From: Azolla caroliniana | Taxonomy: Eukaryota; Plantae; Polypodiophyta | Direction: 5' to 3' | Length of the DNA: 64,000 nt | NCBI GenBank assembly: GCA_043228905.1 | Contig: JBHGNT010000017.1 | Coordinates: 5,022,001 to 5,086,000 of the forward strand | Part shown: positions 1 through 52,408 of the stretch, piece after piece | Layout of the letters: each line of letters begins with the position of its first letter | Position numbering within the stretch: position 1 is the stretch's first letter | The notes under the pieces: model-generated | The model's database searches: none | Seen by the model: only the letters and a program-made list of their open reading frames with translations | What the model was told of the DNA's origin: nothing | Position numbers and translations under genes: made by a program

Positions 1-2365
1 TATGCCGACTGAAGAAGTCCCTTTACGGACTGAAGCAAGCCCCGCGTGCCTGGAACGCGAAGATCACGCAACAACTGCGTCGGATGGGCTTTGTCACGTC
101 AAAATCGGACTCTTCCCTGTTCATCCGGAAAGGTCGACTCGAACCGGTTAGTATTTTACTATATGTTGAGGACTTGGTCATCACCGGCGCCGACCTAGGA
201 GAAATCGACCGCGTGAAGCTCCAGCTTGCGGCATCGTTCGACATGAAGGATTTGGGGGACCTTCATTATTTCCTCAGGATCAAAGTGATCCGTACCCCCG
301 AAGGCATATTGATCAGCCAATGTCATTACGTTGTCGCGTTCCTACGCGCGTGCGTGGAGAAGGGCGGGACCACGGGGGTCTTGGACTAAGGAGTAGAGGA
401 GAAGGAATCGGACATGGAATGGAAGCTTTGCTCAAGAAGAAGAAGAATGAACAAGAGATTAGATCGAACAAGAGGAAGATGGAGACAAGATGATCAACAA
501 GATATATTAAAACGAAATGAACGATTACAAAATGGTGGCCGCATAGGCCGCACCACACGACTCCTCGAAACCCTAACCGACGAAGATGAAGATAAAGATA
601 AAGAAACCCTAACCCTAACCCTAACACCACACGACTCCTCGAAACCCTAACCGACGAAGATGAAGATAAATATAAAGAAACCCTAACCCTAACCCTAACG
701 CTCGACCTATGTGGTATACCTCGCACACTCAAAATAGGCAACCCCCACAATGGTGCCTTCTCTCTCCTTTTATAGCACAAGGAGGGAAGACCGTTTTCAA
801 AAGTGAGACTAAAATATCCCCTTTCATTCAAAGGGGATATTTGCCTTGATTTGGGGAAGGGTGAGATTGATGGCCCCTTAACTCCCACCTCCTCACAAAC
901 AACTAGGTACCTATGTACCGCATAGTACCTCTCTCTCTCTCGCACGTGGATGTGCGCACAAGACCACATCACCTTTATACCTTAGGGATCTTATGGGGGC
1001 ATTCCTAGCACCATGCACTTTACCCTTATTACTATTACAAATACATTATGTACGTGTGCAACGTTGCACATCGCTCTTTGGCTCTCGTTGCTCGGGTTTC
1101 CGCTTGTGGACGAAAATGTTCATGACAACGTGCTGAGTATGCTCTTCAAATTCGGGATGACCGATTGTAAGTCCGTCTCGACTCCTCTAGACAAAACTGT
1201 CAAGCTTCGTCCGGATACGGGAAATGTATGCAACCCGACAAGGTTCCGACAAATTGTCGGAAGCCTCATATACTTGACCATCACCCGACCCGACCTCAGT
1301 TATCCAGTCGGAGTGATCAGTCAGTTCATGGCGCGACCTACCGAGGAGCACCTCCAGTGTGCGCAACACATACTTTGGTATGTGAACGGCACTAAGGACC
1401 GGGGACTGCTATATCAGACCGGTGTAGCCGCGCAGTTAGTCGACTACACCGATGCTGATTGGGCTGGCAACGCCGCCGATCGCCGATCCACGTCCGGATA
1501 CGTGTTCTCCCTCGGGAGTGCCGCGATCGCGTGGAGCAGTAAGAAGCAGACGACAGTTGCATTGTCGAGCACCGAAGCTGAGTACCGAGGAGCGGCTGTC
1601 GCGACATGCGATGCCATATGGTTGAAGCGGCTACTTAAGGACCTGCAAGAGGAGATGTCAGATCCGACGACGATCTACTGCGACAACCTCAGCAACATCC
1701 AGCTCGCAAAAAACCCCGTTTTCCACGCACGGACCAAGCACATTGAGGTGAACTACCATTTCGTTCGTGAGCGTGTTCTTTCCGGTGAAGTCGAACTTCA
1801 GTACGTTCCGACGGATCGGCAGACTGCCGACATCTTCACCAAGCCTCTTGGTCTGGACAAGTTGCAGCAATTCTCAGGTGCGCTCGGATTGCGTCACCTC
1901 AACGTGTCGAACTTGAGGGGGAGAAACAGTCCCGAACGACCAAGCGAGGCAACATCGACTGAAGAAGCCGAGGGCGGACCCGCGGAAAGGAGAGAGCCGA
2001 AGCCAAGCACGCATGGGGAAGATGACGCCATTGAGGGCGAGAAGACCGAAGACAAGTTGGAGACAGTCAACTCGGACGAGAGCGAAAACCGATCGGAGGT
2101 AGCTGAGTTGGTTCAGATGTTTGATTCAGATACGCTGAATCAACTGAGGCCCAAGCGGAAGAAAAGGCAGCAGGAGAAGCGTCAACACCGCAACACCAGA
2201 AGAGCTGATAAGGGCCACATAAGCAGACAAGCTGATCGGAAGGGTCGAAGCGTGCGGAGTCGAACAGGTCGAGGAGCGCGGGCGAGCCGTGAAGCCAGGA
2301 GGAACCAGAGCTGTGAGCCCAAAGATCCCGAAGAACCTCAAGTTGAGCTTGAGGGGGAGTGTTGA
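1..2365 (+). pseudogene. pol: Copia-1 pol 3' part (RT, RNase H, charged C-terminal tail), split by a solo LTR
   Basis: RT motifs LKKSLYGLKQAPRAW and LLYVEDLVITG before 331. The frame resumes at 1132 (HYV|LSMLFKFG). RNase H motifs DADWAG, SSTEAEY, YCDN, HARTKHIEV, ADIFTK. The ORF ends EGEC* inside the LTR. Confidence 0.93.
332..1127 (-). mobile_element. Solo LTR, Gypsy family A (TGTCGCG...CATGACA), 4-bp TSD ACGT
   Basis: Near-identical to LTRs 6391-7111 and 9469-10192. ACGT at 328-331 and 1128-1131. Removing it restores the Copia RT frame. Internal duplication of about 73 bp (555-699). Confidence 0.93.
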
Positions 2366-2814
2366 GAGACAAGCTCAACATTGGCCGGATCGGCTGAAGA
2401 AGCGGAGGACCGGATCGGTTGGGACCGATCGGTTAGGCCAAATGCGTAAGCCGGTATGCAGACCAGTGCATAGGTAGAGCCGGATTGGTGCGTAAACCGG
2501 GAGGCAGTTAGGAAAGATATTCCGTGAGGAATATATTTGGGAGTTAGTGTAGGAGCTCTTAATGAGCATTGAAGTACTGTCAGTACTTCTGTTAGTCCTT
2601 CTAGGACTTGTATAAAAGTGTTCATTAAACACACATATGTATAGAGTGTGGTGAATAGAGATTTAGTACTGTTGTTGAATATAGTTCTTGTTTTTCCTCT
2701 CTCACTCTCTCTGTCTCTCCCGCGTATACTGCGTAAGCTCAAGCTCTCCATTAAACCTGAGTTTTCTTCCTTCTGTTCCGTCTTCATACTTGCTTCCGCA
2801 CATTACTTTTTACA
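2360..2814 (+). repeat. Copia-1 3' LTR
   Basis: Follows PPT GAGGGGGAG (2351-2359). TGTTGAG...TTACA ends. Same start as the Copia-5 LTRs. Confidence 0.85.
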
Positions 2815-4328
2815 ACGTCCAACAATAACTAGGTTACAAGAGGTTGGTTTAAATACCAACTGATCTAGGGTCAATGTCCAAGTTTCTACTAATTACAAAA
2901 CTATCGTTGTATGATGTCCACTAACTAGTGTGAACACTCTCTCTATGGGAAGTTGAGGTCGATCCTGAACACGCCCCTTCGAACTCAACTTCCGTATGTC
3001 GAAAAGTCATTTCGGTTTGGTCTTCAGAATACTTTGATTCGGATGAACCGGCTTTCAGCTTTCGAAATCTTCGAACTTGGTTGTTTGGCTTTTCGGCTTC
3101 ATGCTCGTTGTTCGTTGTACTTCAACTCCTCTGGTCAATTACTTCAGATTCTCGGTTGCTTCCATGTTTATCTCACCTGTTCCTGTCACCTGCTATACTC
3201 CCCCTCAAGCTTGGCAATGTAGAGATTGTGAGACCAAGGTCCAATGCGAATTGCGCGAGTTGTCGACTCCTAAGGCCTTCATAAAGATGTCATCAATTTG
3301 AAGGTTGGTATTGATGTGTTGGAGATCGATTACGCCACCCTAAAAGTGCTCGCGAATGAAGTGGTAATGCACTTCGATGTGTTTAGTTCAGCGCGTGGAA
3401 TACCCGGTTCCGAGCGAGGTACATGTTGCTCATGTTGGTGCAGAAGAGGCGAATTGGATCTGTGATGGGAACACCTAGGTCCTTCAGGATGCGTTTGAGC
3501 CAGACAGCTTCACCTCTGTATTCAGCCTCCATGCTCGATAGTGCGACTGTGGGTTGCTTCTTGCTCCTCCAGGAGATCGTTCCGGTGTCGTGAAGGAAAC
3601 CGACCTTAGTCGGAATCGGTCAAAAGGGTGTATGAACCGGCCCTTACGCGCGGGCTCAAGTATTGATAAGGAGTACATCATTAAGAATAGGCTGGCGTGA
3701 TGTGCATATCCTAGGAAGGGTGTAATAATAGGCTAGTAAATCAAAGTGGATCTCTCTCCGAAGGGACAGAGAATAAAGGTGATGCGACAGGATGTAACGG
3801 TCCCTCCCCAATGGCCTATAAAAGGGGAGGGGTGAAGACATAAAAGGGATCGTGTTTTGGCAAGGACGAGGTGTTGTTGGACTAGGAACCGAGCTCCCTC
3901 CTCCTCTATCGTTGTTTTCTGCAGGCTTTCTGAGTTGGCTACCTCTACTTCGAGGAAAGTCGTGTGCTTTCGGCAAAGGCTCTACTATGTGTGCGTGGGT
4001 GTGTGATTGTCTGGGTTGGGTCTGTCACCGGCTATCCGATTGTAATCTTGCAAACGGTGTAACCTTTATTGTTGTAGGAATCGAATCTCTTGTTCTCTCT
4101 CTCTGTGTGTGTTTCTGTCAGTCTTTCTTTTACGCGAGTGTGCGTCTTGTTCAGTTACTCGTTAGTGGTTCATTCGGCTAGCACGCACTGTCAGTGGCAA
4201 ATGGGCCTAACCGGTCTACGCTTGCGCTCTTCTCCCATGCCGCCTTCTTCTCTCTCTTGCTCCTCGGTTCAGGGGCCCCGCAGTCCCGCCTTATTTCCTA
4301 TGCGAAAGTGGAACAACACGACATTATT

Positions 4329-4346
4329 TGGTGAACCCGACATGAA
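4329..4346 (+). promoter_or_regulatory. PBS complementary to the tRNA-Trp 3' end
   Basis: TGGTGAACCCGACATGAA, 5 nt after the LTR. It matches the plant tRNA-Trp 3' end as recalled (TTCACGTCGGGTTCACCA) with one mismatch. Confidence 0.85.
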
Positions 4347-6390
4347 ACAAGGAGGCAGAGGAGTCGAAGATGAGAGGATTAGAGCTCGCTAAAGCCATGG
4401 AGGCAGGAGTTGACCAGATAGTAAGTGCTCGCGAGGGCATGGGCGCCCTAGACAGGGCCATTGAAGCAATTGTTAGCACAATAGGTCGGTTCGGTGGGAA
4501 GGACACCACGAGCTATTTGGTGGCCTACCGAGACGAGATGGTGATGAGGGACATTCCGGAAGACAGGCGGTTGGTCGGATTCCCTCAGGTGGCAATACCG
4601 GGCATTCACGCGGAGGTGCTCGAGGTGCAGGCCGGATGCCGAGCCGAACCTAGGAAGAGTTCGAGGGGCGGCTCGTCGAAAGGTACGGGCTTGATGACGG
4701 GCTTCGGCTATCGAAGCGAGATTTCATGGATTGGGTGGAGACCCCCGGAAAAGGGAGTAATTCGTCGGCGTTCTCCGGGAGTTTGAAGAACGCTTCGCAC
4801 GGCTCTCGGCACTGGACAGAGTTGTGCTGGACAGGAGCTGTGTCTTCTTGTTTGCCAAAGCCGTGGACGTGCGGGATCGAGATAAGGTGGGTCTCCTACT
4901 GGAGACGGATGACGGGCTGACAGACGACTAGGCCGTGGTGAAGATAGTCTGCGGCCATTTTGACAAATGGCGTGAGTGGGGCGATGAGGGATCGTTGGCG
5001 GCGAGATCCGTCCCGGCAAGGAAGTTCAATGACCCTTCGCCGGCACGAAAGGATGAAACCCGAGATTGGCTCGAGACGGGCTCGACCTCGATCGGCATGG
5101 TCAAGGGTCCATCCGGAGGACCGACTCTTGAGGAGCTGACACAAATGGTGCGCGACCTGCAGATCGCGCAGGCCAGTAGAGACAATGGAGGGCAGCTACA
5201 CGACCAGAGGCCACAGGTTGGACAACGGTGTATGTGGTGCGACGCGGTCGGACACAGCCGGCGAGACTGCGTGGAGTTTGTCGAGGCCCTGAGTGGTAAT
5301 GTGGTGTACTTATGGAATGGATGAGTGCACGCTGGTGATACCCGGGGAGCCGTGGAGACAAATTTCGGGCGCGGCAAGATGAAGTGGTTAATGGAAGAAG
5401 TGGAGGTGCGCCATGTAGAGGCCGTCCATTATTCGACATTGGCCGGAATCCGGGTAGCAGGTAACGAAGACCGGAAAACAAAAGACTCTGGCTTCTGGCC
5501 CTTGGTGCTAGAAGGCCTCTCCGGTGCAAGACTGAAGAGGGAAGAAGTAGACTGCGCAGAGCAACGGGTCCTAGAGGTCACCGGGTGGGACGAACCGGTA
5601 GAAGAGAAGATCGACTTTGTGGAAGCCGAGTGCCAGAACTACGAAGTTCTGGTGGATGATAAGAGGGCAGGGAAGGCTGGTGGGACCACGGCCCCGAATC
5701 GGTACGAAACCCGGTTCGAGCCGAAGAGGGATGAAGCCAACAATTCTGGCATGGCAGACAAAGCAAGGTTGACTCGTTACCGGCTGGGCACCGAAATCGA
5801 AAGGACGAAGGACCTGTGGAAGGTCCTCGAGGAGCAGATTCTCGACAACAAGGTGGAACTGTCGCTGAGGGAGGTGCTTGGGATCGCCAAGAAGGAGTTC
5901 CACTATTCCATCGTGGACTTGGTGAAGCGTAAACGGCTCTCGACGGAGCCGGAGAAGCCGATGGAGGTGCGAACGACATGCCTGGAAGACGCGGCCCAGG
6001 AAGACGAGTTGGTGGAGAGCCACTATTCGATGTTGCACTATGCGAGGGCTACTTCGGAAACCCCCGTTCGGGTCGGGGACGTCTAGGAGCCGGTAGTGGC
6101 GTTGATCGACCACGGGTCGGAGATCAACCTGATGTCTTTGGACTTCTATAAGAAAGGGAAGTGGCTGATTTACACCAAGCACGGGTGGAAGATACAGGCG
6201 GCGACACGCGCCACAGAGGAGCTGCACGGGGCCTACCCAAATGTATGTGTGAAAATCGGCGATGTCGAGATTGATTAGCACTTCTTCGTGCAAGAGACAT
6301 CCTCGTAGCCGGTGATACTTGGCGAACCGTACATTACGGCGCACGCATGGAGACAAAGGTGTTGGATAACGGTTCAGCATACGCACGCGT

Positions 6391-9300
6391 TGTCGCGTTG
6401 TTATGTGCGTGCGTGGAGAAGGGCGGGACCACGGGGGTCTTGGACTAAGGAGTAGAGGAGAGGGAATTGGACATGGAATGGAAGCTTTGCTCAAGAAGAA
6501 GAAGAATGAACAAGAGATTAGATCGAACAAGAGGAAGATGGAGACAAGATGATCAACAAGATATATTTAAACGAAATGAACGATTACAAAATGGTGGCTG
6601 CATAGGCCGCACCAAACGACTACTCGAAACCCTAACTGACGAAGATGAAGATAAAGATAAACAAACCCTAACCCTAACCCTAACGCTCGACCTATGTGGT
6701 ATACCTCGCACACTCAAAATAGGCAACCCCTACAATGGTGCCTTCCCTCTCCTTTTATAGCACAAGGAGGGAATACCGTTTACAAAAGTGAGACTAAAAT
6801 ATCCCCTTTCATTCAAAGGGGATATTTGCCTTGATTTGGGGAGGGTGAGATTGATGGCTCCTTAACTCCCACCTCCACACAAACAACTAGGTACCTATGT
6901 AGCGCATAGTACCTCTCTCTCTCTCTCTCGCGTGGTTGTGCGCACAAGACCACATCACCTTTATACCTTAGGGATCCTATGGGGCATTTCTAGCACCATA
7001 CACTTTACCCTTATTACTATTACAAATACATTATGTACGTGTGCAACGTTGCACATCGCTCTTTGGCTCTCGTTGCTCGGGTTCCGCTTGTGGATGGAAA
7101 TCTTCACGACATCCGCCCCCACCTAACTGCACATCCACCGGTATGTGCCAAAACATAGGGGAGAGAACACGAGATTTTCGGCCACGACGACCGACCGAGT
7201 CCTTAGCGTCCTCGTGGGCCTGCCCGGTTTTGTCTTCCACTTCGAGCAAGACCACCCCGTCCACATGAACCACCGCCGCCTTCCGGTCCACCATCCTCGC
7301 CGAATGGTCTCGAACCGTCGGTGCCATCCGATCCGTCACACTCGATGATGTTCGCCAAGTCGTTGCCTCCACCTGATCCGCCACGTCCCGATTGGCCTCG
7401 CATGTCCTTTGGGACACCGCGTTTTCTCTTCCCGGTGCGTAGCCCTCCGTTCTCAACGCACCTCCTCCGTTTTACTAGATACGACTCTCCGCTCATGCCG
7501 ATTGCGCTCGGCCCATGTCGTCGATCTTGGTGTTTCGCCGCACCGTCCTTTGTCCCGCGCTTGCCTCTCGAAGGCTTGACCCGACCGTCATCGTCGGTCA
7601 ATCGTTGTCGCCCATCCGCCGTATGCATGCTTGTGTCTTGGCCCTCCACCGGCCGTATTGCATGCGTCTCATGTCGCGCTTCCGCCGTAGACCCGACCTC
7701 CGCATCGGTCTCCAACTCCTCGCCGCCACCCACCGTTTCTTCGTTCTCCTTTCGATCCGCGACCGCCGATGCCTCACGGGTAGGTGTGGAGGGTTGCTCC
7801 CACTCTCGGTCCACCACCGAGTTCTCGCCTCTCAAAGGCTCAATCGGTCCACCATTTCCGGTCACTCGTTGACGCTCCCCCGAGTGCATGCTTGTTCCTT
7901 GACCCTCCATCGGCCGTAGTGCATGCTTCACTTCACGCTCATCTGCCGTAGACCCGACCTCCGCGTTGGTCTCTTCGTCCTTCCCACACCGGGCATCCGT
8001 TCCGGTACCCGATTCCACATTGTCTTCCAACTCCTCGCCGCCACCCGCCATCTCTTCGGTCTTCCGTTGATCCACAACTGCCGAAGTCTCAAGCATAGGT
8101 GTGGAGGGCTCCTCTTGCTCTCGGCCTCTCACCGACCTGTACTCGTCGTGCCCGGCTACGAATCGATCAAGCAATCTTGGTCTTGCAGGCTTCCTTCAGT
8201 TCGGGCCCGGTTGACCGGCCCCCGCTTCACTCTTCTTCCGCTCCGCCTCCCGGTCGGGTCGGATTACCGACCGGCTCATTTTTCGGTCGGGTCGTTTCCC
8301 GATCCGCTCCTCGATGCCGCTCTGGACCTCTCCTTCGTCTTTTCGCACGTGCCCACTTCGGGCCTCTCATCCTCACGGCCAACGCCCATCTCTGCGGTCT
8401 TATGTCCGCGCTCGGGAGCAACCGCCGAAGTCTCCGGCCCCGGTGTCGAGGGATCTCGCCCTCATCCGCTACAAACCTCCTCTTCGTCATTTCGGTTGCC
8501 CGCCTTGCCGCCGCCACCATTCGTTACCCTAGGTCTCACGCGGGCACTCGGGCCGGCCGCCGGGGTCTCTTGAACAGGTGCGTGCATGGTAGCTCTAGGT
8601 CTCACGCCGGCAATCGGGCCGACTGCCGGTGCCTCTAGGGCCGGTGTGTGTAAGGACGCGGCACCGCCACTTGTCTCCTCCTCACTCGACGTTTTGGGCC
8701 TCCATGCCTGAACTCCCTCATGTCTGCTCGAACCAGCGATTGCCGCCTCACCATCCCCGACCTCGTCCTCGGTCGATCTTTCTCCGTATGTCGAGAGGGT
8801 GGCTCGCTCCGCACCCTCTCCCATGGTACCGATGTACCATTCTCTTTCGGCCTCCTCATCCTCCGATCCGCTCGGGCTCGACTCTGTAATAAGCCCTTCT
8901 TCAGCTTCGATTTGTGCCTCTACGATCTCGTACGCTTCCCGCAACAAGGCTTCGATGTCGAGCTCCTCCGAACCGATTTGCGTTGAGCTCTCTTCCGGTG
9001 GTAGTGCATAGTCGGTCGCCGCTCTCTCTTCTCCGCCGCTCGTGGGCCGCGTTGTGGCCGACCGCCTCTCATCGCATTGTATGCATGCCCATTCCACCTC
9101 GTTCCAATCTTCGGTGAGGCCGTACGCCCCTTCATCTTCTTCGAGGTAGGGAAAAATGGTCATTCTCCCCCTTTCGTTGATCGACTTCAAGAATAGTGGA
9201 ACCTTGTCCGCCCCCACCGATTCTTGATCCCGGACCGAAAGTTGGGAAAACCGGAGATCGAACTCCCGGAATGCCTTCATCGCGCTTCGAGGAGCCTTTG

Positions 9301-10192
9301 CCGACGACACCCATAGATCAAACTTGCGTCGATCGTACTTGTACGCCTCTTCCCGTCTTTCTCTCCTTCTTGCGTAATCCTTTGCCATTCTCGTAATTAC
9401 TTCTGCGATGTCTCCGTCTTCCATCTCCTTCCTCCCTTGCCGCCTCTTCACGTCGGGTTCACCAAATATGTCGCGTTGTTACGTGCGTGCGTGGAGAAGG
9501 GCGGGACCACGGGGGTCTTGGACTAAGGAGTAGAGGAGAGGGAATCGGACATGGAATGGAAGCTTTGCTCAAGAAGAAGAAGAATGAACAAGAGATTAGA
9601 TCGAACAAGAGGAAGATGGAGACAAGATGATCAACAAGATATATTAAAACAAAATGAACGATTACAAAATGGTGGCCGCATAGGCCGCACCAAACGACTA
9701 CTCGAAACCCTAACCGACGAAGATGAAGATAAAAATAAACAAACCCTAACCCTAACCCTAACGCTCGACCTATGTGGTATACCTCGCACACTCAAAATAG
9801 GCAACCCCTACAATGGTGCCTTCCCTCTCCTTTAATAGCAAAAGGAGGGAATACCGTTTACAAACGTGAGACTAAAATATCCCCTTTCATTCAAAGGGGA
9901 TATTTGCCTTGATTTGGGGAGGGTGAGATTGATGGCCCCTTAACTCCCACCTCCACACAAACAACTAGGTACCTATGTAGCGCATAGTACCTCTCTCTCT
10001 CTCTCTCTCGCGTGGATGTGCGCACAAGACCACATCACCTTTATACCTTAGGGATCCTATTGGGCATTTCTAGCACCATACACTTTACCCTTATTACTAT
10101 TACAAGTACATTATGTACGTGTGCAACGTTGCACATCGCTCTTTGGCTCTCGTTGCTCGGGTTTCCGCTTGTGGAAGAAAATCTTCACGACA
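6391..10192 (-). mobile_element. Non-autonomous (gag-only) LTR element, family A
   Basis: LTRs 6391-7111 and 9469-10192. Trp PBS 9447-9464. PPT 7112-7123. TSD GCGT/GTGT. Internal ORFs are gag-like (8462-9451) and acidic low-complexity (7203-8174), with no protease, RT or integrase motifs. Confidence 0.9.
9447..9464 (-). promoter_or_regulatory. 18-nt tRNA-Trp PBS
   Basis: The plus strand reads TTCACGTCGGGTTCACCA, identical to the recalled 3' end of plant tRNA-Trp(CCA). It lies 4 nt from the LTR. Confidence 0.88.
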
Positions 10193-12968
10193 GTGTGAAA
10201 AGCCAAGATGGGCGGCACTCCGACCAATTTCGGACAGTGCGACCGAACCATGAGCGTAACCGCGAGACCCTCGGCGGCGACATCTGAGGGGATTTTAAGA
10301 GAGGGATATCAAGGCGTAGGGCCGCGATAGTCCAGACACTCTGGCAAAACCCCACAAGTGTACTATAGGTAGGAAGTTTTGGGTCTCGGACAACGGAGGT
10401 TGTACGATAGCCGGTGTCGGTGGCCAGGAGAAGAAGAGGGCCGAGGAACGTTTCAGAGAGTGGGGAGTCCTCTACCCCAACGAAGAAATTAGCAGGGCCA
10501 TGGAGGTGATCTCTTTCGATGACACCCTGGGAGAGTTAGGGCGGGTGGTCAAAGAATGCCTCAATGAAGATCGGGTCGTCTCGGTTATTTCTGTAGAGAT
10601 GTTCGAAGTCATTGCCGACTTCGGGGAGAGGGTCAGGTCGGATCGGACGGCCTACGTAGATGCAAAGTACAAGACTGTGGACCGGAAGGTGAGGCCAATT
10701 GCGGCTCTCCTCCCAGAGGGCAACGAGGAGTGGAAAAAGGGGGTCGCGTCGAACCCAAGTTTACGGAATCCGGCCGGCATAGGACACCGGTTCACCAACA
10801 TAACACTAGGGGAGCTCAAGGTCGGTGGTGGTGGCTTTCTACTCCCGGCGGAGGAGGACCGGTTTTGGTCAATTCTCAGAAGGCACGGGAGGGCCTTCGC
10901 ATTCATGCCGGGGGAGATCGGGTGTGTAGACCCGACGATCGTGGAACCAATGGTGATCTTCATGGTATCGTATGTGCCGTGGAATCTCAAGCCGATTCCG
11001 GTACCCAGAGTTCACATCGCGAAGTTGATGGAGCTGCTGAAGTAGAAGGTGGAGATGGGCATCCTCGAGCCATCGAGTGCCCCATATTCGAATCAATGGT
11101 TTACCATGCCTAAGAAGAATGGCACATTGTGCTTCATTCAGGACCTACAGCCGGTCAACAAGGTGACCATTCGGAACACAGGTGTCGAACCGACCATTGA
11201 CGAGTTCGCGGAGGCCTTCGCCAGAAGGTCGATCTATTCGGTTGGGGATCTGTACTCAGGGTACGATTAGTTCGAACTAACCGTGGAGAGCAGGGACATT
11301 AGGACGATGCGAACTCTCGGCTTCGTGCGGATGTGTACCCTGCCGCAAGGAGGGACCAACTTGGTGGCACACATGGTGAATGCAATAAATAAGGTGTTGA
11401 GGGATTGCATCCCGGACATCACCATGCCATTCATGGACGACATCCCGATAAAAGGGTGCACGGTGGAAGAGAATGATGAGTTGGTCGGGCCGGATGGTTG
11501 CCGAAGATTAGTAATGGACCACATCGGCGACTGCGAGAAGGTGCTTCAAAGACTTGAGGATGTGCGGCTCACCTTCTCCAGTGAGAAATAAGCTTTCAGG
11601 CAGTCGGAGATCCTAGTGGTCGGGCACTTGTGCGGGACTTATGACCAGAAGCTGTCTCCGACAAAGGTAGAAGCCATCTCTGTAATGAAGGAAGAATGCA
11701 AGTCGGTCACGAAGGTGCGGAGGTTCCTAGGCACGTGCGGGTTCTACCATATTTGGATTCCGCACTACGCACACGTCGCGGAGCCGCTCTACCGGTTGCT
11801 GAAGAAGGGGCGTAAATTCGAGTGGGTGAGGAGCATGCAGAGTTGGTTCATAGACTAAAGGAGGTGCTAACCGCGGCACCGGCACTCTGGAAAGCGGTTT
11901 ACGGCAAGGACATCCCAGTTTACATTACGGTAGGCACGAGCTTGACCGGGATAGGATGGGTGGTCAACCAGGAGGATGAAACCGGCACAAGGTTCCCCAT
12001 CTGGTTCGTAGCAAAGGTGCTGAGTGAGAGACAACGAGGATACGCCCAAGTTAAACGCAAACTCTGGGGTATCGTTTTGGTAGTCAAGGCCGATAAAGAC
12101 TACTTGATCGGGACGGAGGTGATAATCGAGACAGACTGCCTATCGATCCTTGGTATGGTTTCCAAATGCACAACGCTGTACCTGGCAATGCACAGGTGGA
12201 TCGCATACATCATGTCCCTGAATCCGGAAATACGGCACATTTTCAGGAAAGACAACACCATGGCCGACATGCTTTCTACATCATAGTGTGACGATGAGGA
12301 CGGCATGGTTCGGAGAGCATGAAGTTTCGGAGAGCGACGGGTGAGTGCAAGCTAGTTTTCTCCAGCATTTGTCCCTCTATGGCGCATACCGGTAGATGCA
12401 CGGTTTGGTGGGGTTGGATGTCGTGAAGGATACCGGCCTTAGGCGGAATCGGTGAAAAGGGTGTATGAACTGGCCCTTACACGCGAGCACAATTATTGAT
12501 AAGGAGTACATCATTAAGAATAGGCTGGCGTGATGTGCATATCCTAGGAAGGGTGTAATAATAGGCTGTAAATCAAAGTGGATCTCTGTCCGAAGGGACA
12601 GAGAATAAAGGTGATGCGACAGGATGTAACGGTCCCTCCCCAGCAGCCTATAAAAGGGGAGGGGTGAAGACATAAAAAGGATCGTGTTTTGGCAAGGACG
12701 AGGTGTTGTTGGACTAGGAACCAAGCTCTCTCCTCCTCTATCGTTGTTTTCTACAGGCTTTCTGAGTTGGTTGCCTCTGCTTCGAGGAAAGTCGTGTGCT
12801 TTCGGCAAAGGTTCTACTGTGTGTGCATGGGTGTGTGATTTTTTGGGTTGGGTCTATCGCCGTCTCTCCGGTTGTAATCTTGCAAATGGTGTAACCTTTA
12901 CTGTTGTAGGAATCGAATCCAATGTTTTCTCTCTGTGTGTGTTTCTATGAGTCTTTCTTTTACGCGAG

Positions 12969-15900
12969 TGTCAGGAATAGTACTAAAGCAGAGATGGAAT
13001 TAGTACTAAGAAGAGTAGTACTATTAGTACTAAGAGGACGGGACGGGACTGCGTAAGATTCCCGAGAGAGAGGAAGTGAGAAGAGGAGAGAGAGAGAGAA
13101 ATAGGATGATGACAGCAGCTCTTATATTATATGAAAGATAAGTACAAATCGGCTAAGAGGCTTAAGACTGGTGTTGAACCAATTTGGTTCAAAACAATGC
13201 CTTGTGCCTCCTTTTATAGTGTTTTTAGGAATAATCCTGAATCTTCTAGAATGTTCCAGAGAGATCTGGAATATACATCAATTTTCTATGATAAAGCATA
13301 AATGAAAATAATATCTTACAAAATACAATTCATAGTCTAATGGTAAGAGCTCGACCCATGTTACATAAGGTCATGGGTTCGAGTCTTGCCATATCATGAC
13401 ACTATCTCCCCCTTAAAGACGACGAGTGGCACGAGTCGGCGCTAATTGCGGACCGGGTTTGTCCGGATACTTTCAGTGGAAATCAGCAAGAAGATCTTGT
13501 GCATTGGCAACATGCTCGACGGGTTCCCAAGTACGTTCGCTCGGACTATAACCGAGCCAATCGACCAAGTAATAAAGTTTGTTGCGAACAAGTTTGGAAT
13601 CGAGGATGGCAGCAACTTCATACTCCGGGCCGGGATGGCTTTATAAGGCTCAAGAAGAGAACAATGGAAAACTGAATGTATCTGAAGCTGCGGAGGGAGA
13701 TCAAGGCGGAAGGTGACATCATTAATCTTCCCCATAATACGGAAAGGATCGAGTCGTCGATAATCTAACTTGTCGCACGGTCGAGTAGTCTTGATGTGAC
13801 GACGTAAGAGCCATACTCGATCTCCGATGGCAAAACAGGAGGGAATCTGATGACGATCTGCATAAGTCTTCTGTGTGTGTTGAGCATGACGAAGGTGAGT
13901 AGAGAGATCCATCTGGATCTTGTGTAGCCTCTCCAAATGATCTTCGGCACGAGGGTTGGTAGGTAGCTCCGGAGTGTCGATCACCGACCAGGGAGGATGG
14001 AAACCGGTATAAGCGAAAAATGGGGAGACCCGAGTCGAGGAGTGAATAGCATTATTATACGCAAACTCCGCAACGTGGAGAATCTCGGCCCAATCGTCCT
14101 GTTGATAACTCAGGAAACACCGGAGATATTGCTCCAGCGTTTGGTTTGTTCATTCCGCCTGTCCGTCAGTCTGAGGATGGTAGCCGGAGGAGAGTTTGCA
14201 GGAGACCTTGAGCATCTTGAAGAGATGCTGCCAAAATTTGGAGACAAATTGCGGGCCTCGGTCACTGATAACACTGTCTGGGAGGCCATGATGCCGAAAT
14301 ACCTCACGCATAACAAGAGCGGCGGTTTCCTCGCTAGTGATGGCTTTAGTACATGACACAAAATGTGCCATCTTCGTATATCGATCGACGACGGTTAGGA
14401 TAGCATCGAACCCCTTCGAGACCGGCAGATCTGTGATAAAATCAAGACAAATAGACTGCCATGGCTTACTTGGAATCGGTAAAGGTTCCAACAAGCCATA
14501 TGGATGGTGTCGTGGCATCTTTGCTCGGCAGCAAGCATCATAGGTCCGAATGTAGTCGTCGACAAAACGGCGCATTTGGGGCCACCAAAAAGATCGTTGC
14601 ACTAGCTCCAACGTCTTAGTACTACCGAAATGTCCCGCCGTATGGGTGTCGTGACAATGTTGGACGATTTGAAGGCGACAGGAGCAATCAGGGACATATA
14701 CGCGCTTTTTAAAGAATAACAAACCATCATGATATTCGAATTGTCGGTAGTCAATACCTGGTTGTTGAGACTGAGAACAGGATGCCCGAGAAGTATCAAT
14801 GTGCGCCAGAATGTCTTGAGCAAAACTATCTGTCTTCAAGGTTGCACGTATGTCATCGGTAATCCGTGAATCCATCGGGGTGTGAAAAATCCGCGTCGTG
14901 TGCAATCGTGTTGGTCCCAAGATTACTTGCTTTTGATTATCAAATATTGCGTCACCAGGACGAGGTGCAAGATATGAACGTCGTGATAGTGCATATGCTT
15001 TTCCTTGCTGCTTCCCCGGTCGATATGTGATTTGGAAGTCGAAACGCGTGAGGAATTGCACCCACCGAGCTTGCCGTCGATTTAGTACGCGAGCGTTCTG
15101 AAAATAAGCAAGATTTTTATGATCGCGAAAGACAATGACCTGATGTGGAGAGCCCTCTAAGAAATGCCGCCATTGTACAAAGGAATCCACGATGGCTAAT
15201 AACTCCTTGTCATGTATTTCGTAGTTGATTTCTGCGACATCGAATTTGCGCGAATGGAAAGCCACCGGATGCAACTCTTCTTTATCGCCTTGTTGAGAAA
15301 GGATGCTACCGAGGGCGAAATCTGATGCGTCGGCCTCCATGATGAATGGTTTGCTTGTATCCACATGAGCTAGAATCGGTGCTGATGTAAAGGCTTTCTT
15401 AAGATGCCGAAAAGCCATATCTGCTTCTATGGACCAAAGAAATTTTTGGCCCTTCTTCGTAAGTTGTGTGAGAGGTAAAATAATCTTCGAGTAATCCTGT
15501 ATAAACTTACGGTAGAAGTTAGCAAAACCTAGAAAACATTGTACATCTCGTACCGACCGTGGAATTTGCCACTCTAGTACAGTTTGGATTTTAGTTGGAT
15601 CCATGGCGATGCCCTTTGAGGAGATGACGTAGCTTAGAAATTCCACTTGCTTGCAGTCAAAGCTACATTTTTCTAGCTTGGCATAAAGACCATTCTTGCG
15701 GAGTCGCTTTAGTACTAATAGTACATGAGAATCGTGCTCTTCCTGGGTCTTTGAATAAATCAACAGATCACCCAGATAAATGATCAAACAAATATCCAAG
15801 AGGTCTCTGAATATATCATTTGCCATGTGTTGGAAGACTGTGGGTGCATTGGTTAGGCCAAACGGCATAACAGTATACTCGAAATGCCCATACCGCGTGC

Positions 15901-22508: not shown

Positions 22509-22539
<31 letters not shown>

Positions 22540-24308: not shown

Positions 24309-24361
24309 AGTTAGAATCCTACCCGTAACCACCCTTTGGTGAAGTGATCCGGAAGGACACC

Positions 24362-39018: not shown

Positions 39019-39860
39019 TGTTAGTATGTAGTTTTGAGTGGAGCCTAGTCATATGTGCAAGAACTCTTCCTCCCTATATTGTATATACATATTCTTTCAT
39101 TCTTATATTATAATATCTTGATTCTTACCTCTATGTCTACATCATTTGTTTATGTCTATGTTCCTATCTCTATATATGTATGTTATTTGTTTATCTTGTG
39201 GGCCTATTACGTCTTTCGTCATGTATATAGAGTTGTCAAAACTCTAACAAGTGGTATCAGAGCTACCATTAAAGCCTAAACATGATGGAGATCCCATCGC
39301 AACTGGAGAAACTTGACAAAGACAACTACCAACCGTGGAAGTTCCGTATGAGGAGTTGCCCGATTAGCAAAGATACAGAGCAACCTAGAGTTCCTTATCA
39401 AAGTTCGACGAAAGCTGAAATCGATGCTTATAATCAATGGAATACAAAGGATAAGACAGTGACTTTTATTTTGTCACATGACATCTTGAATTCTATGATA
39501 GGACATATACAAGATTTAGAAACTTCAAGGGAAGTATGGAATAGTCTAGAAAGATTATACACATCAACAACAAAAGCACAAAAGATTCAACTTAAAAATG
39601 AGTTGCACAATTTAAAAAATCACAGTCAATGGTGGTGAATGATTATGTTTTGAAGATTAAAAATGTTTCAAATGAACTAGCCTTGATAAGTAGTATCATT
39701 GATAATGATGATCTGGACGCATTTTGTCTAAATGGTTTAAGGGATGATGACAAGTGGAAGTCTTTCATCACATCAATATATGTAATAGACACTTTGCCTA
39801 ATTTGGATCAACTTGTTTCTCTTATGATAACGGAGGAGTTGAATCTACAATGTCTCATAA
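39019..39860 (+). mobile_element. Truncated Copia: 5' LTR, Met PBS and gag fragment
   Basis: Putative LTR TGTTAG...CTAACA 39019-39249. TGGTATCAGAGC at 39252-39263. gag EKLDKDNYQPWKFRM and KIQLKNELHNL. Confidence 0.8.
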
Positions 39861-39960
39861 AGACATACATTAACCAAGAATCAAACCCATAACTTCTTGG
39901 TCTATGTGTTGAACCCTTAACCATTGTAATAACATATATGAACATCGTCGATTGCCTGAC

Positions 39961-44198: not shown

Positions 44199-47100
44199 TG
44201 TCGTGCCTTTCGGAGCCGGATCGTTTGCGTGAGTCGGGTGGGAACCGCTGGGGTTTTGGACTAGGAGAAAGAAGAATATGAGATAATGTTAGTTAGGATG
44301 AGATTGTAAGAAGAAGATATGAAACTCGTGAATCCCGCGAGTATAATGTATTAATGGGTAATTAGATTGTAAGAGAGAACTAGATGGTAAAATCGTGAAT
44401 CCCACGAATATTTTGTATTAAACAATCATTCTAAAATAAAATCAACAACCCTATACATCTTCCTCTCTTCCTTATATACTATTGGAATAGTCTAAGTTTA
44501 TCACATGCAAGCATCATGCTTTTCCTAACTTTAGTTTTCATGCACACTACATGTGCATAATTAGCTTTCTATCCCATCTTTTCTTTTAACTCGAGTGTGT
44601 ATGCATGAATAACTTTTTGTACCATGCATATCTAGAATATTTACATGGGACATAGTTTAGTATACTTTTTAAAATTCATAGTATGCTAGTATAGTGGTAA
44701 GGCTGAGGTTTGTCTACATGGAGGTACATGGTTCGAATCCTGCCCTATGCACGTAATAAATATTTTTAGTACTATTATTATTTTTTTATTATACGTACTT
44801 TAAATCGGATATAGTGTTTTACATATTTCACGTAGTGTGCAATTCACACTATGACACTTGCCCCCTCCGAACCCGCACATTCTCCGGTATGTGCCGAAGT
44901 CCCCGATGCTTGTTATTCACCTTCATCCGAAACTTCCTCCGATTCTCCCCTTAAGTCGACTATGAGTTGTAATCCACTTTCTTCGCTTTCTGCATCAGCA
45001 CGATCTTCGTCCGATTGCTCCTTCTTGTCGGTCTTATCTAGGATCACATAGGGTTCTTCATAAGTCCGCTTTTTGAAAATCTTCACCCGTTTCCCGGCTA
45101 TAGGCACTCGTAGTATCGTTCCATCCAACTCGCATAGTCGGTAAGTTCCGTTGTCGAAAACTTTCCGAACCTCGTATGGCCCGAACTACCTTTTCGCGAA
45201 CTTCCGCATCGTTGTATGTTGATGATCCAAACTACTATCGTAGACAATCACCCAATCTCCTTCTTCAATCTGCCGCGGTCGTAGTCTGTGCTTTGCGTTG
45301 AACTGGCTTTTATTCCGGAAGCGCGCTTCTTGTTGTCAGCGTATTACTTCCGCTATGTCTTCCGGTCTTCCCTCTAGTTGTCATATCTGGACCGCTAGTA
45401 GTTCTTCCCGGCTCATCTCTTCCTTCCACGGTAGCACTGTCCATGTCGCGATCGCGGTTTCTGTTGGCATTACCGGTGCTTGTCCGGTCATGAGTTCTGT
45501 CGGCATGTAACCGGTTACGGAGCTATGCGTCGTCCGATCCACACATAGTGCATACAGGAGCATCTGCGGCCAATCCTTCACCCTTCCGTCGCATGCTTTG
45601 GCAAGTGCTTTGACGATCAGACTATGTCCTCGTTCGATTTTCCCGTTGGCCTCCGGATTGTATGTCGTTGTTAGTGTTAACTGAACTCCATGTTTGGTGA
45701 AGAATTCCTTAGCTTTATCAGAGTCAAGTTCTCCCCGATCCGCAATCACTTGTCCTACGCACCCGTACTTGCAAAACACCTCCTCCAAAAGAAATTGGCA
45801 TACCGCAGAACACATTTTCCTTTGTAGCGCCCAACCTTCTACTTGGTTTGTGAGATCTTCCCGAGCTAACACCAAGTACTTCTTTTGTCCGATCCCGGTT
45901 GGCATGGCTACAATATCGACAATCCACTTGAAGTTGATTGTCGGTGAGAATGTCAGATGTAACTCATCTCGGTGTCGAACTCCGGAGTAGATTTGACACT
46001 TCTCGCAGCTTTCCGTGAACTCCACTATATCTTTGTACATGTTCTTCCACCAATATTTTTGTTTGATCTTCACAAAAGTTTCCCATGTTCCTCGATGTGC
46101 AGCCCAATCGGATTCGTGAAATTCGGACATTATCCGGTTTCATTGCTCTTTCGTCCCGACTACCCGAAGTGGTATGCCATTTGGTCTTTTCGGCTCCCTC
46201 TATATTAATCCATTTTTCAAGAAGAACTTTCAAACTTCCCGCTTCTTACTTCAGATCTTGGCTCTCTTCTCTTTATTTTCCGATGATTCCTTGATTTCTT
46301 GTAGCACTTTCCCGATCAGCAAGCTTTCTCCCTCGTATTCTTCTTCCCGGAATTCTCGAATTACGTTCACCCGGCATATGTGCTCCGAAACAAAGTAGTC
46401 TTCGGAAACTTCTTCATTATCGGATTCAGTTATGTCATAACCGAACCGCGCCCTTGATAGCATATCCGCTACCACGTTGTCTTTTCTGGAGATGTGTCGT
46501 ACCTCCGGATTAAGTGACTTAACATATGCAATCCACCTTAGCATAGCCACATCTGGTATCGTGCAACACCGCATCATCCCGAGTATCGAAAAACATTCTG
46601 TTTCGATCACTACTTCGGCTCCGATCAAATAATCTCGATCCGATTTTATTGCCGACACGACTCCCTATAATTCTCTTTTGACTTGTGCATATCCGCATTT
46701 CCTTTCATTGAGAACCTTTGCTCCGAATTGGATCGGATATCGCGAACCATCCGAGTCGGCTTGATTGATGACCCATCCGATTCTGGTTGGACTTGTGTAA
46801 ACCGTTACTATGATCGGTCGGTCATAGTTCGGCTTCTTCACGGCTTCTTCACGGCTTCGGTATGCTCCGGTTTCCATTCGAACTTCTTACCCTTCCGCAA
46901 CAAGTGATAGAGTGGGTCCGCAATATGTGCATAGTGCGGAATCCATATGTGATAGAATGCACGTGCTCCAAAAAACCTTCGGACTTCGGATTGTGACTCG
47001 CATAGTTCTTTCATAGCTTGAATCACATCGATCTTGGTTGGTGACGGTCTTCGGCCGTAGGGGCCACATAGATGTCCGACTACCAATATTTCTTCTTGCC

Positions 47101-49235
47101 TGAATGCCGATTTCTCACCGGAAAGTGTTAGGTGCACATCTTCTAACTTTCGAAGCACTTTCTCGCAATCACGAATATGGTCAACTACGAATTTTCGGCA
47201 TCCCCGATCATCCTTAGTTTCATCTTTTTCTTCTACCGCGTATCCTTTCATCGGAATGGCATCTAGGAATGGCATCGTTATCTCTAGAATGCAATCTCGA
47301 AGCACCTTGTTCATTGCATTCATCATATGTGCCACCGAGTTCGCCACGCCTTGTGGTAGCGTACACATCCGGACTAATCCTATCGGTGTCTGCATGGTAG
47401 TGATGTCTCGGCTCTCCACGGCTAGTTGGAATTGGTCATACCCCAAGTATAGGTCTCCGATGGAGTATATCGTACGACCAGGAAATGCTTCCACAAATTC
47501 GTCCACTATCGGACCAAGTCCGGAGTTCCGGATCATGACCTTATTCACCGGTTGCAAGTCTTGGATAAATTGGAGTGACCCATTCTTCTTCGGAACCGTA
47601 AACCATCGATTTGAGTACGGAGCGTTTGATGGCTCTAGAATCCCCATCACCACCTTCTCCTTGAGCAAGTCGATGATTTTGGGAATATGCGCCCGCGGCA
47701 CCGGAATCAGCTTCAGGTTCCACGACACATGGTCAATCGTGAAGATCACCATTGGCTCCACTATCTTCGGATCAACGCATCCTATCTCCTTCGATGTGAA
47801 TGCAAATGCTTTCCCATGTTGTTCCAACATCCCACAAAATCGTTCTTCTTCATTTTGTAAAAGGAAACCACCTCCACCGATCCGAAGTTTCTTCCGAGTC
47901 TCATCCGTGAAGGCATATCCGATATCCACGAACTTCCGAAATGTCGGATCTCCTGAGACTTCTTTCCTCTTTTGTTCACTATCGGCGGATAGTGGTCCCG
48001 CGGTCGGTTTCACCTTCTTCCCCACGGTCTTGTATTTCGTACTTACCATTGCTTCTTCTTTGCGGAGTGCATCCAGCCCCATTTTCGCAATGATCTCGTA
48101 CATCTCGACCAATTCCACCGGGACTACCCGGTCTCCTTGGCTTGTATCCTCCACAAGCTCTTCAAGCCGTTGTAGTGTGCTCCCATATAACACTACTTCG
48201 ATTACCCCCACGATTTCTTCGTCTTCTTTTATTATTGATGCCGACCGCAACTTATCCTCTACTTTTCAGTATTCTTTCTTCTTTCCTCCAGTTATGGCCG
48301 TGTACGTAGATGCCCCATATGGACCGATTCATACTTGTTTTGCTTCGAGAGTTTTCTTCCTGTGTGGGGTATCAGGGCTTCTCGGACTATCACTTCCCCA
48401 CTCCACAACAGTCCGCTCTAAAAATCCATCCTTGTTTGGGACAAGAGCTCTCTCTTGTTCCTTTCATGATTTGCCGGCATATTTAGGAATTGGACAGATT
48501 TCCCTCCACTTTGGCTCCGAATTCGTGCGAAAACCGCACAGCTATCGAGGATCACGGAATGGTTGCCCAAGGATCACGGAATGTGAGACCTCGTCTTGTA
48601 CGAAGAAATTTTGGTCGATCTCGACATCCCCGATCTTCACCGTCACATCGAAAGGTCCGGATGTTCAGGTATGTATCTTGTTATATGCAGATGATCTAGT
48701 CATAACCGGACCTAGACTTGCTGATAGATCTTCCATTGCTTTAGTGGTTGCCCGAATCTTCCATCCATGGTTAGTGTTTATAGGCCACTTCCCCTTCCGG
48801 TAGAACTCCTTGGACATCAAATTGATCTCTGATCCATGATCAATCAATGCTAGCACAGGCTCTTTGATGTTGCCGATTCGGACCGGAGTCTCCGTAGTTG
48901 CACGTGCCCAGTGTGGCCTTGTGTAGTGGGAGTTCAGTATTTCGTCCTCAACTTCGGTGTCATTCATTAAGACGATATTTGCATTCACCCTTGGAGCATT
49001 TTCCTCCGTACTTCGTCTTTTCCTCTTCACGAGATCCACAAGAAGATCGTGGAACTCCTTCACTATTCCGAGTAATTCCCGAAGCGAAAATTCTACCCGA
49101 CTATCGAGGATTCTATCTTCGAACACCTTTTTTAAGTCTGTTTGTTGTTCGATGTCCGAGGCGAGCTTGAATGGCTTAATCGTCTTTGCTTTTCCCTTCC
49201 CTCCGGAGTTCCAACTTTCCAGTGTCTTTGATGGT
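44199..49235 (-). mobile_element. Gypsy C (same lineage as B): 3' LTR, integrase, RNase H, RT, protease; 5' truncated
   Basis: LTR TGTCGTG...ATGACA 44199-44856, left flank ACGT. PPT 44857-44868. Integrase (IADRGEL, YNPEANGKIERGH), RT (FIQDLQPVN, LPQGVANS), protease LIDHGSEIN. Confidence 0.9.
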
Positions 49236-51092
49236 CTGAACAGAGAAGAGTCCAACTTCGAGGCTGCAAACCTCATCCTACGCAAATGGTGCATGATCTT
49301 CGAATTCCAAGAACGGGGTCTTGCTTCAGGCCGTAAAGAGAATTTTTTAGTCGATAGACTGGCGACTTGTTCATCTCTGACTAGAAACCGGGAGGTTGGA
49401 TCATGTAGACCTATTCTTCAAGATCACCTTGAAGAAATTCATTCTTCACATCCATTTGGTGAAGATGTCACCCCTTTGCTGCAACAACTGTTAGCACCAC
49501 ACAAATCGTTGTCATCTTCACTACCGGAGTGAAAGTCTCGTCGTAGTCAATTCCATGGGTTTGCTCATATCCTTTCGCCACGACCCGTCCAGTTCTACGC
49601 TCCTCGACGTTCTCAATCGGCTTGCCTCCTCGTAAGGCCCAGTTGATTCGACTCCTCCGAATTGAACTCCTCTTTCGAATCGGCTGCCTCCGATTCATTC
49701 CAACTCTTGTCCAAATTGGTTGTCTCCATTTCGTCCTTCATCTTCAGGCCCCTCCATTTGGTGAAGATGTCACCTCTGTGCCGCAACAACTGTTAGCACC
49801 ACATGAATCGTCATCATCTTCACTACCAGAGCGAAAGTCACGTCATAGTCGATTCCATGGGTATGCGCATATCCTTTCACCACTAACTGGGGCTTGTACC
49901 TGTTGACCAAACCATCAACATTGTATTTCACCTTGAACATGCATTTGGAGCCAATTGGTTTGTAGTGTCGGGGAGGGTCCACCAGGTCCCATTTTTCATT
50001 GGCATCGAGTGCCTGCATCTCTTTGTCCATTGCGGCATGCCAATTCACATCTTTAACCACCTCTGCGTAGCTCTCCGGCTCACGCACTTCCGCCACCTTC
50101 GTCATGTACGCATAATGATACGCCATGTACTCATTATACCCATACCTCTCGTTTGCCGATTTCAAGGTCCTCTTGGCCGGCTGGGACTTCATTTGCGAAG
50201 GTCCGTCTTCGTTCCTTCTAGAGTTGGACTTCGTTCCTTTCGATCTGACTCTTCCCTACTGATGTCATATTCCGCCATCTTCTTCTTCCCGTTTCCTTTG
50301 GGTGTGAACTGTGTCCTCAGTTCCTTATGCAGGGAAAGCACGGTCGATTCTTCACTACTCGCCAGCTCTTCATCTGACTGGTCGACCCAACTCAATCACT
50401 CATTTGGCCCACCTAGCTAGAGTGAAATCAGACTCTCGTCCAGAGTCCCAAACTCTTCTTCTTCGTCTGCACGGATCGTTTCGAGCTCACTGGTCTCATC
50501 CTCCGGAATCGGGTCGGAGTCGGGAGAGAGTACCATGATGCCGACTCATCAAATTCAACATCTTGGCTCACTCGAACTTGTTTTGTTCAAGGGTTATAGC
50601 ACTTATAACCCTTTTGCTCATGTGAGTAGTCAACTTCCTCTGCTTCTCATCCAGTACATGCACATAGGAAATGCTACCAAATATCTTAAGGAGGCTTAAA
50701 TTTGGCTTCTGCCCTAAATATATCGCATGTGCTAATGCCTTATCCCCGATCCGGTGTTGGATGTAGACGGCCATCCGGACCACTTCGGCCCAGTAGAACT
50801 TGGGCATGCTCTTATCTTCTAGCATTAACCCGTTGTCGCGAAGTTTCACGCTCGCGTGCAGGAAGAGGCGGGATCACGAGGGTCTTGGACCAAGGAGAGA
50901 GTGAGAGAGAGAGAGAGTCCCAGACACACAGAAAGAAAATAAGAGCAAGAAACAGGAATCTGATTACTATAATCAGTAGCTTACAACTCAAACAGTTACA
51001 ACCGGCAAACCGGTAATGGACCTGACACGGGGTCCTACTCACGCACACAGACGGCAGCCACTCGACTCGAAGAAACAAAAAGGGACGGGGGG

Positions 51093-51125
<33 letters not shown>

Positions 51126-52408
51126 TTTGCTGGAAGCACACAGGCTGTCCATGAAGCGGAGGCAGCGAACTCTCGACACCCACAGAGAACAACGATCGGA
51201 GGAGAGAGAGCTCGGCACTCAGTTCGGCAGCAGCACTTCTTCCTCGCCAACGCGTGATACCCTTTCTTCCTTCTCTCCTTCCTTAAATAGTTTGCCGAGG
51301 GGAGACCCTTCTCCCCTAGTCAAATCGCTTTATTCCCTGTCCCTTTCGACAGAGATACTCACAAATCCCCAAATAAATGTGTACTACCTAATATTTACAT
51401 CAGCCGACCTAATTATGAATTATGTACAAAATATCAATTCTCGCATCCACCCATGTATGAGCCGGTTCATGCGCCTTTTCCTCCGAGTCCACCTGTGGCC
51501 GGTTTTCTTCACGACATCGTGCCGCCTCAACAATCGACCGATTCTTCCTTTTGGCCACACCGTTTTGTTCCGGTGTGTATCTACAACTGAATTCTCGTTG
51601 AATTCCCTTCTATTGCAAATAACTGTTGAATTGACCAGAAAAGTATTCTTTTCGGCCATCCGACCGTATGTACTTGATCTTTCTCTTCGATTCCCGTTTG
51701 ACAAGGCTTTGTAGGTTCTGGAAATAGTCGACGACTTCGCTTTTCTTTTCAATGAGATAGATCCACGTGTGTTGGCTATAGTTGTCGATGAAGGAGACGA
51801 AATATCGACTCCCGCCAAGACTAATGTTATGTGCTGGTCCCCACACATCCGAATGTATCAACTCAAACTTGTTACTGCTCTGGTTTCTTTCGTGGGGAAC
51901 GGAAGCCCATGTTGCTTCCCGAGTTGGCAAGCTTCACTGATTTGGGCCTTCCGGCCACCCTTTGCAAATAAAGTGGTGCCGACATCATTGGTTTTTAGGA
52001 TGAACATCATCCCGTCCCCTTGCACGATGACTTGGCCCTCTTCCTCGATGACGCACCTGAGGTGCATAAACCGCATCTACATCCCATGGTCAATGATATG
52101 CCTGACCGACACCAAGTTCTCTGTGATTGTCGGAATGTGGAGCACGTTCATAAGCTTCCCTTTTTGTCCAACATGAATCAATGGATCTTCTCCGACATGC
52201 ACAATCGGGTGAGGAGTGCCATCTTCGGTTTCAACAACTCTTGGTTGCTCCGGCTTTTCTAGAAACGAGAACCCCTCTTCGTGGCTCGTCATCTGGTTAG
52301 ACGTTCCAGAGTCAACATACCACACTTCCTCCAGCACTCGTTTTCTCGGTGGCCCTTTTCGTCACAATATCTTCTGATCCGGATCCAATTGAGCTTGCCC
52401 ACTCAACA
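49236..52408 (-). mobile_element. Copia-4, heavily deleted and scrambled, with an LTR tip at 52376-52408
   Basis: Protease WYVDSGTSNQMT, integrase HSDVWGP. The RT N-terminal block occurs twice (about 49460-49580 and 49755-49880). Many short deletions. Confidence 0.8.
50834..51516 (-). mobile_element. Solo LTR, family D of the 4-bp-TSD Gypsy lineage
   Basis: TGTCGCG...CACGACA ends. TSD CCGT (50830-50833) / TCGT (51517-51520). Shares the GCGGGA.CACG.GGGTCTTGGAC motif with family A. Confidence 0.88.

What the first reader, a model, noticed from the sequence alone, without database searches (positions are those of the whole stretch)
328..51520. Gypsy lineage with 4-bp TSDs inserts only at CpG-centred targets (6 of 6)
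Seen: six separate insertions from five LTR families with TGTCG...GACA ends have targets ACGT/ACGT (332-1127), CCGG/CCGT (3586-18786), GCGT/GTGT (6391-10192), ACGC/ACGC (30628-36389), ACGT (left flank only, 44199) and CCGT/TCGT (50834-51516). All are NCGN. At 30624 the host LTR reads GAACACACGCTTTGAG whereas sister copies (about 62910 and 24825) read GAACACACCCTTTGAG, so the insertion hit a copy-specific CpG. Of the four complete 5-bp TSDs in the window (GCGAG, CAAGG, CATCC, TTAGT) only one contains CG. If CpG frequency were about 1/16, six of six would be roughly 1e-7 by chance. Established: most plant LTR elements make 5-bp TSDs with weak sequence preference. Inference: the integrase reads CpG, possibly methylated, and so steers these chromodomain-less elements into other TEs. 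I do not know whether this has been described.
Basis: partly seen in the sequence, partly recalled or inferred. Interest (0 to 1): 0.82.

Follow-up and report, generated by a model that had tools for sequence, protein, structure and literature searches.

The report
Phygy-type retrotransposons insert at CpG
Six retrotransposon insertions here all sit on a CG pair with a 4-base duplication; this is real, but the same preference is already published for moss Phygy elements, and these are likely their relatives in a non-seed plant, probably a fern.

Summary
All six insertion targets are 4 bp with a central CG in at least one copy. Reads of empty sister sites confirm the 4-bp duplication at 328. 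In related elements from other assemblies, 15 of 21 homology-checked LTR junctions have the central CG and 4 more have TG or CA, its usual decay products; background is about 4.5%.

It is not new. Neumann et al. 2019 (PMC6317226) report moss Phygy elements with a 4-bp NCGN TSD in 186 elements, a tRNA-Trp PBS and no extra domain. The window elements match on TSD, domain content and rough size, and their PBS looks like tRNA-Trp (identity recalled). Their RT groups with liverwort and fern proteins. No true Phygy sequence was available for the tree.

Integrase readout of CG is the likely cause. Methyl-CpG reading is untested. Nesting in other TEs needs no extra targeting: P is about 0.44 from CpG distribution alone. 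A small new lead is an acidic residue at the PFV Ala188-equivalent position in 112 of 112 relatives.

The parts
332..1127 (-). Family A solo LTR (796 bp) inside a copia RT region; TSD ACGT/ACGT
   Evidence: empty-site reads
3586..18786 (+). Element C: LTRs 3586-4323 and 12419-12968 + 18595-18786 (92.4% alike); gag with DUF4100, protease region, RT, RNase H; integrase missing; TSD CCGG/CCGT
4329..4346 (+). PBS of element C, same motif as in 40 of 80 related loci; tRNA-Trp identity recalled, not confirmed by a call
6391..10192 (-). Family A non-autonomous element nested in C; LTRs 6391-7111 and 9469-10192 (97.8% alike); PBS 9447-9464; only a gag remnant inside; TSD GCGT/GTGT
30628..36389 (-). 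Element D, non-autonomous (gag remnant); LTRs 30628-31805 and 34194-35117 + 36146-36389 (92.1% alike); inside a solo LTR at 30584-36744; TSD ACGC/ACGC, the only CG between 30300 and the insertion
44199..49238 (-). Element E, 5' end lost: 3' LTR 44199-44856, PPT, integrase, RNase H, RT, DUF4100 part of gag; one flank ACGT
45384..46139 (-). Integrase zinc-finger and core of E; DRGELD loop with an acidic residue at the PFV Ala188-equivalent position; no chromodomain found downstream
46841..48265 (-). RT of E; 55-65% identity to Riccia and Adiantum proteins, up to 88% to unnamed assembly proteins
50834..51516 (-). Family F solo LTR (683 bp) inside a copia copy, about 68% like the LTR of C; TSD CCGT/TCGT
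12969..18589 (-). Comparison element: unrelated Gypsy nested in the 3' LTR of C, 5-bp TSD GCGAG/ACGAG, RT only 24% like that of E

Best explanation
These are five families of a non-chromovirus Ty3/Gypsy lineage, likely Phygy or its sister, whose insertions duplicate 4 bp centred on CG, likely because the integrase itself selects that dinucleotide. Shown: 4-bp TSD, central CG, shared PBS and PPT, TGTCG...CGACA ends, no chromodomain or extra RNase H. Inferred: the integrase cuts with a 4-bp stagger and bends the target at the central step, as PFV integrase does at flexible pyrimidine-purine steps, with added base contacts narrowing the choice from TA/CA/TG/CG to CG. Non-autonomous A and D would use integrase from intact relatives. 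Nesting in other TEs follows because host TEs hold most of the CpGs. TG and CA centres are likely later decay of methylated CpG.
For: 6 of 6 window sites. 15 of 21 outside junctions CG, 4 TG/CA, 2 CT; 16 of 25 with no rows dropped; CG at the other 25 flank offsets averages 0.025. The site at 30624 is an isolated CG in AT-rich DNA and rare among sister copies, which points to local base reading, not regional targeting. Phygy features in PMC6317226: 186 elements, 4 bp (100%) NCGN, tRNA-Trp 81%, no extra domain, 7.7-10.0 kb. Internal length of 16 of 17 measurable relatives is 5.6-6.0 kb, about 7-8.3 kb with LTRs. No chromodomain or separate extra RNase H in 12 proteins scanned. Central YR preference of 4-bp integrases: PMC4422553. 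CGCG targets of the ZAM subgroup in Drosophila: PMC5408687; that flies lack appreciable CpG methylation is recalled.
Against: No Physcomitrium Phygy sequence was among the 240 listed homologs, so clade membership was not tested by tree. The tRNA-Trp identity of the PBS is recalled; three attempts to confirm it found nothing useful. Outside junctions are mostly single flanks from collapsed short-read assemblies, and the one locus with both flanks (L011) has unlike ones (CCGC, ACGT). These assemblies may come from the same genus, so they are not phylogenetically independent. PFV Ala188 contacts bases outside the TSD, so the acidic residue does not by itself explain the central CG. No biochemical test was run.
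Confidence: 0.75

Rival explanations
1. The integrase needs or strongly prefers methylated CpG, and so aims at silenced TEs without a chromodomain.
For: LTR pairs show more C/T and G/A changes at CG (47 of 301 sites) and CHG (25 of 171) than at CHH (41 of 894), so host TEs are likely methylated. All six window sites are in TEs. Cytosine methylation created strong sites for alpharetroviral integrase in vitro (PMC11054761, passage). Phygy nested in Tcn1 is reported in moss (PMC6911290).
Against: 6 of 6 in TEs has P about 0.44 under plain CpG reading. Outside flanks are 41% GC and CpG-poor. Decay after insertion says nothing on the state at insertion. ZAM-type CGCG targeting exists in Drosophila.
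Confidence: 0.15
2. The elements are not Phygy but a separate fern/liverwort non-chromovirus clade (or TatI-like) with the same target habit.
For: Phygy was defined as a Physcomitrella-specific clade. TatI also has 4-bp TSDs and tRNA-Trp priming. No moss protein was named among the homologs.
Against: TatI is defined by an extra RNase H between protease and RT, which was not found. Selgy uses tRNA-Ala and is about 5 kb. NCGN is singled out for Phygy alone. Phygy has been annotated in a liverwort (PMC12885004).
Confidence: 0.08
3. The pattern is an artefact of misplaced LTR ends or of a CG-rich neighbourhood.
For: Three of five complete TSDs have a mismatch; one site leaves an extra base against sisters.
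Against: LTR ends are fixed independently by PBS and PPT; empty-site reads give 796 + 4; CG appears at one flank offset only; local CG frequency is 0.004-0.082.
Confidence: 0.02

Closest known systems
Phygy, non-chromovirus Ty3/gypsy clade of Physcomitrium patens (Neumann et al. 2019, PMC6317226; REXdb)
   Same: 4-bp TSD with NCGN, no extra domain, compact internal region, similar size, PBS that looks like tRNA-Trp.
   Different: Host here is likely a fern, not the moss; several families with short non-autonomous derivatives; membership not tested against Phygy sequences.
TatI and Selgy clades of clubmoss (same paper)
   Same: Non-chromovirus, 4-bp TSD; TatI also tRNA-Trp.
   Different: TatI carries an extra RNase H, absent here; Selgy uses tRNA-Ala and is about 5 kb; no NCGN motif is given for either.
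ZAM subgroup errantiviruses of Drosophila (PMC5408687)
   Same: Gypsy elements with a CG-centred 4-base target (CGCG).
   Different: Insect lineage with AGT/AnT ends and often env; here TG/CA ends and free outer bases.
Prototype foamy virus intasome (PMC4422553; best solved relative, E 2e-17)
   Same: 4-bp TSD and a central pyrimidine-purine step.
   Different: PFV accepts any YR step weakly; here one YR step dominates, and the Ala188-equivalent loop is acidic and one residue shorter.

Membership tests
Phygy | RT/RH/INT group with P. patens Phygy elements | not testable with these tools
   No Phygy reference among homologs; the paper's sequence files were too large to read. The tree puts C and E together (97/89) inside a 24-row group with liverwort and fern proteins (90/100).
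Phygy | 4-bp TSD with NCGN | tested here: met
Phygy | PBS complementary to tRNA-Trp | tested here: inconclusive
   Conserved TGG-starting PBS in A, C and 40 of 80 loci, degenerate in D; match to plant tRNA-Trp is recalled; searches gave no confirmation.
Phygy | No chromodomain, no extra RNase H | tested here: met
   Pfam scans; weak RVT_3 hits overlap the element's own RNase H.
Phygy | Length 7.7-10.0 kb, polyprotein filling the internal part | tested here: inconclusive
   No complete copy in the window; relatives have 5.6-6.0 kb internal (16 of 17), about 7-8.3 kb with LTRs, at the low end of the range.
TatI | Extra RNase H between protease and RT | tested here: not met
   definition
Selgy | tRNA-Ala PBS, about 5 kb | tested here: not met
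   Internal region alone is 5.6-6.0 kb against a 4.4-6.7 kb whole element; PBS identity recalled.
Chromovirus | Chromodomain after integrase | tested here: not met

The most novel reading that the evidence does not exclude
The integrase of this lineage reads methylated CpG directly, giving mosses, liverworts and ferns a chromodomain-free way to aim retrotransposons at silenced DNA; the invariant acidic loop next to the catalytic aspartate marks an altered target-binding surface.
Probability: 0.15. Interest if true: 0.75.

Novelty: new member of a known kind. Interest (0 to 1): 0.27.

Why it matters
It suggests the published moss NCGN preference is shared by many families in a likely fern host, so it would be an old trait of this lineage. 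A CpG-reading integrase would put insertions where CpGs are, here mostly other TEs, and would lose targets as CpGs decay. Only a shown dependence on methylation would be a real surprise.

Tried and rejected
No whole genome is held, so no genome-wide logo. Viral contigs gave no relatives. tRNA-Trp look-ups found nothing: paper search gave unrelated mouse papers, patterns gave 0 hits. A fungal host or Ylt1 link was considered because of DUF4100 and the dioxygenase; the passages read gave no Ylt1 target motif and the best hits are plant proteins. The ESM Atlas added nothing. Loose-end tables of reads give only a majority line, so no target logo. A looser junction scan added CG-centred sites but also false hits inside RT, so only the homology-checked set is counted. 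Four of its 25 rows were dropped as LTR-internal repeats: L005 TCGA, L039 TGTG, L046 and L047 TAGG. Earlier scan findings: none.

Full report
Observation. Each has a 4-bp target with CG at positions 2-3 in at least one copy. LTR ends are fixed without using the TSD: a PBS follows the 5' LTR and a PPT precedes the 3' LTR in A, C and D, and a PPT precedes the LTR of E. Removing element plus four bases restores colinearity with sister copies at 332, 3586 and 30628; at 50834 one extra base remains. Reads of empty sister copies skip 800 bases at the first site, 796 of LTR plus 4. Window CG frequency is 0.047, so six of six is 1.1e-8, or 1.5e-6 allowing any dinucleotide. The other LTR elements in the window have 5-bp TSDs: GCGAG/ACGAG, CAAGG, CATCC, TTAGT.

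Anatomy. Family A has a solo LTR and a non-autonomous copy nested in C. C keeps gag, RT and RNase H but has lost integrase. D keeps a gag remnant. E keeps RT, RNase H, integrase and its 3' LTR but has lost its 5' end. F is a solo LTR. LTR pairs are 97.8% (A), 92.4% (C) and 92.1% (D) alike. Pfam finds DUF4100 in C and E and no chromodomain or separate extra RNase H in these or in seven homologs.

Host and relatives. The RT of E hits Riccia, Calypogeia and Adiantum proteins and unnamed assembly proteins up to 88%. A dioxygenase exon at 28151-28702 has its best of 4 hits in the fern Ceratopteris richardii at 69% (only longer proteins searched). A non-seed plant, probably a fern, is inferred. In a 29-row RT tree, C and E share a clade with six unnamed relatives (97/89) inside a 24-row group with liverwort and fern proteins (90/100); the 5-bp Gypsy of the window is far outside, on a very long branch.

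Independent test. The metagenome scan kept the best 80 of 256 related stretches; 40 of 80 carry the same PBS. A homology check found 25 LTR junctions with intact termini that are not next to a PBS or PPT. Four were dropped as LTR-internal repeats. Of 21, 15 have central CG, 2 TG, 2 CA and 2 CT; with none dropped it is 16 of 25. Against 0.045 background, P is 3e-16; CG at the other flank offsets averages 0.025. These are mostly single flanks from collapsed assemblies, perhaps of close relatives of the host.

Copy-specific CpG. At 30624 the claim holds in three contig runs, where G at the matching position is under 1%; the site is also the only CG between 30300 and the insertion. At 328 most sister copies already carry ACGT, so there it does not hold.

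What is known. PMC6317226 (passages, section 9 and supplementary table 5 read) states that Phygy elements have an insertion preference for NCGN, and lists 186 elements, 4 bp (100%), tRNA-Trp 81%, no extra domain, 7.7-10.0 kb. Its Additional files 1 and 3, which likely hold the element table and sequences, were too large to read and bear on membership. PMC6911290 (passages) reports GC-rich centres in 4-bp TSDs, mostly 4-bp TSDs in Phygy, and Phygy nested in Tcn1. PMC12885004 (passages) annotates Phygy in a liverwort. PMC5408687 (passages) gives CGCG for the ZAM subgroup, while PMC3276498 (passages) gives AT-rich 4-bp motifs for other fly Gypsy clades. Ten searches turned up no test of methylation dependence for Phygy and no report in ferns; the library lacks most subscription papers.

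Mechanism. Integrases with 4-bp TSDs bend the target at a central pyrimidine-purine step (PMC4422553, passages). CG is one such step; preferring it over TA, CA and TG needs added base contacts, which is inferred. The integrase of E aligns to PFV integrase at E 2e-17. Its loop after the second catalytic aspartate is one residue shorter and has Glu where PFV has Ala188; all 112 homologs aligned there have Glu (91) or Asp (21). Retroviruses have small neutral residues there, and the residue contacts bases outside the TSD, so this is a lead, not an explanation.

Methylation and nesting. Host TEs are likely methylated, from the excess of transitions at CG and CHG, and methylation created integration sites for an alpharetroviral integrase in vitro (PMC11054761, passage). 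But CG frequency is 0.05-0.08 in TEs and 0.011-0.023 outside. By a rough partition, 13% of host CpGs lie outside TEs, so six nested insertions have P about 0.44 from CpG reading alone. Nothing here separates CpG from methyl-CpG.

Verdict. A real and strong target preference, already described for Phygy, seen here in several families of a likely fern. New member of a known kind; interest 0.27.

Noticed in passing
window 27530-28702 (-): Intron-containing intradiol ring-cleavage dioxygenase gene; best hit Ceratopteris richardii 69%. This family is recalled as mainly fungal and bacterial.
   Followed up: partly
window 45384-46139 (-): Integrase loop DxG-[E/D] is acidic in 112 of 112 homologs at the PFV Ala188-equivalent position and one residue short.
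   Followed up: partly
window 35118-36145: About 1 kb insertion in the 5' LTR of D with internal inverted repeats (35119-35265, 35680-35776); no clear TSD seen.
   Followed up: no
window 12969-18589 (-): Young Gypsy (LTRs 98.8% alike) with 5-bp TSD and no obvious tRNA PBS, possibly Tcn1-like, nested in the LTR of C; a related LTR starts at 62957.
   Followed up: partly
window 52821-58603 (-): Near-complete copia element with TSD TTAGT; related broken copies at 1-2800, 40935-44198 and 49239-52332 host three of the six insertions.
   Followed up: partly
L046:7143 and L047:7049: A second LTR-start-like sequence about 128 bp inside the LTR in both loci, possibly an old internal duplication or a fixed nested insertion.
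   Followed up: no
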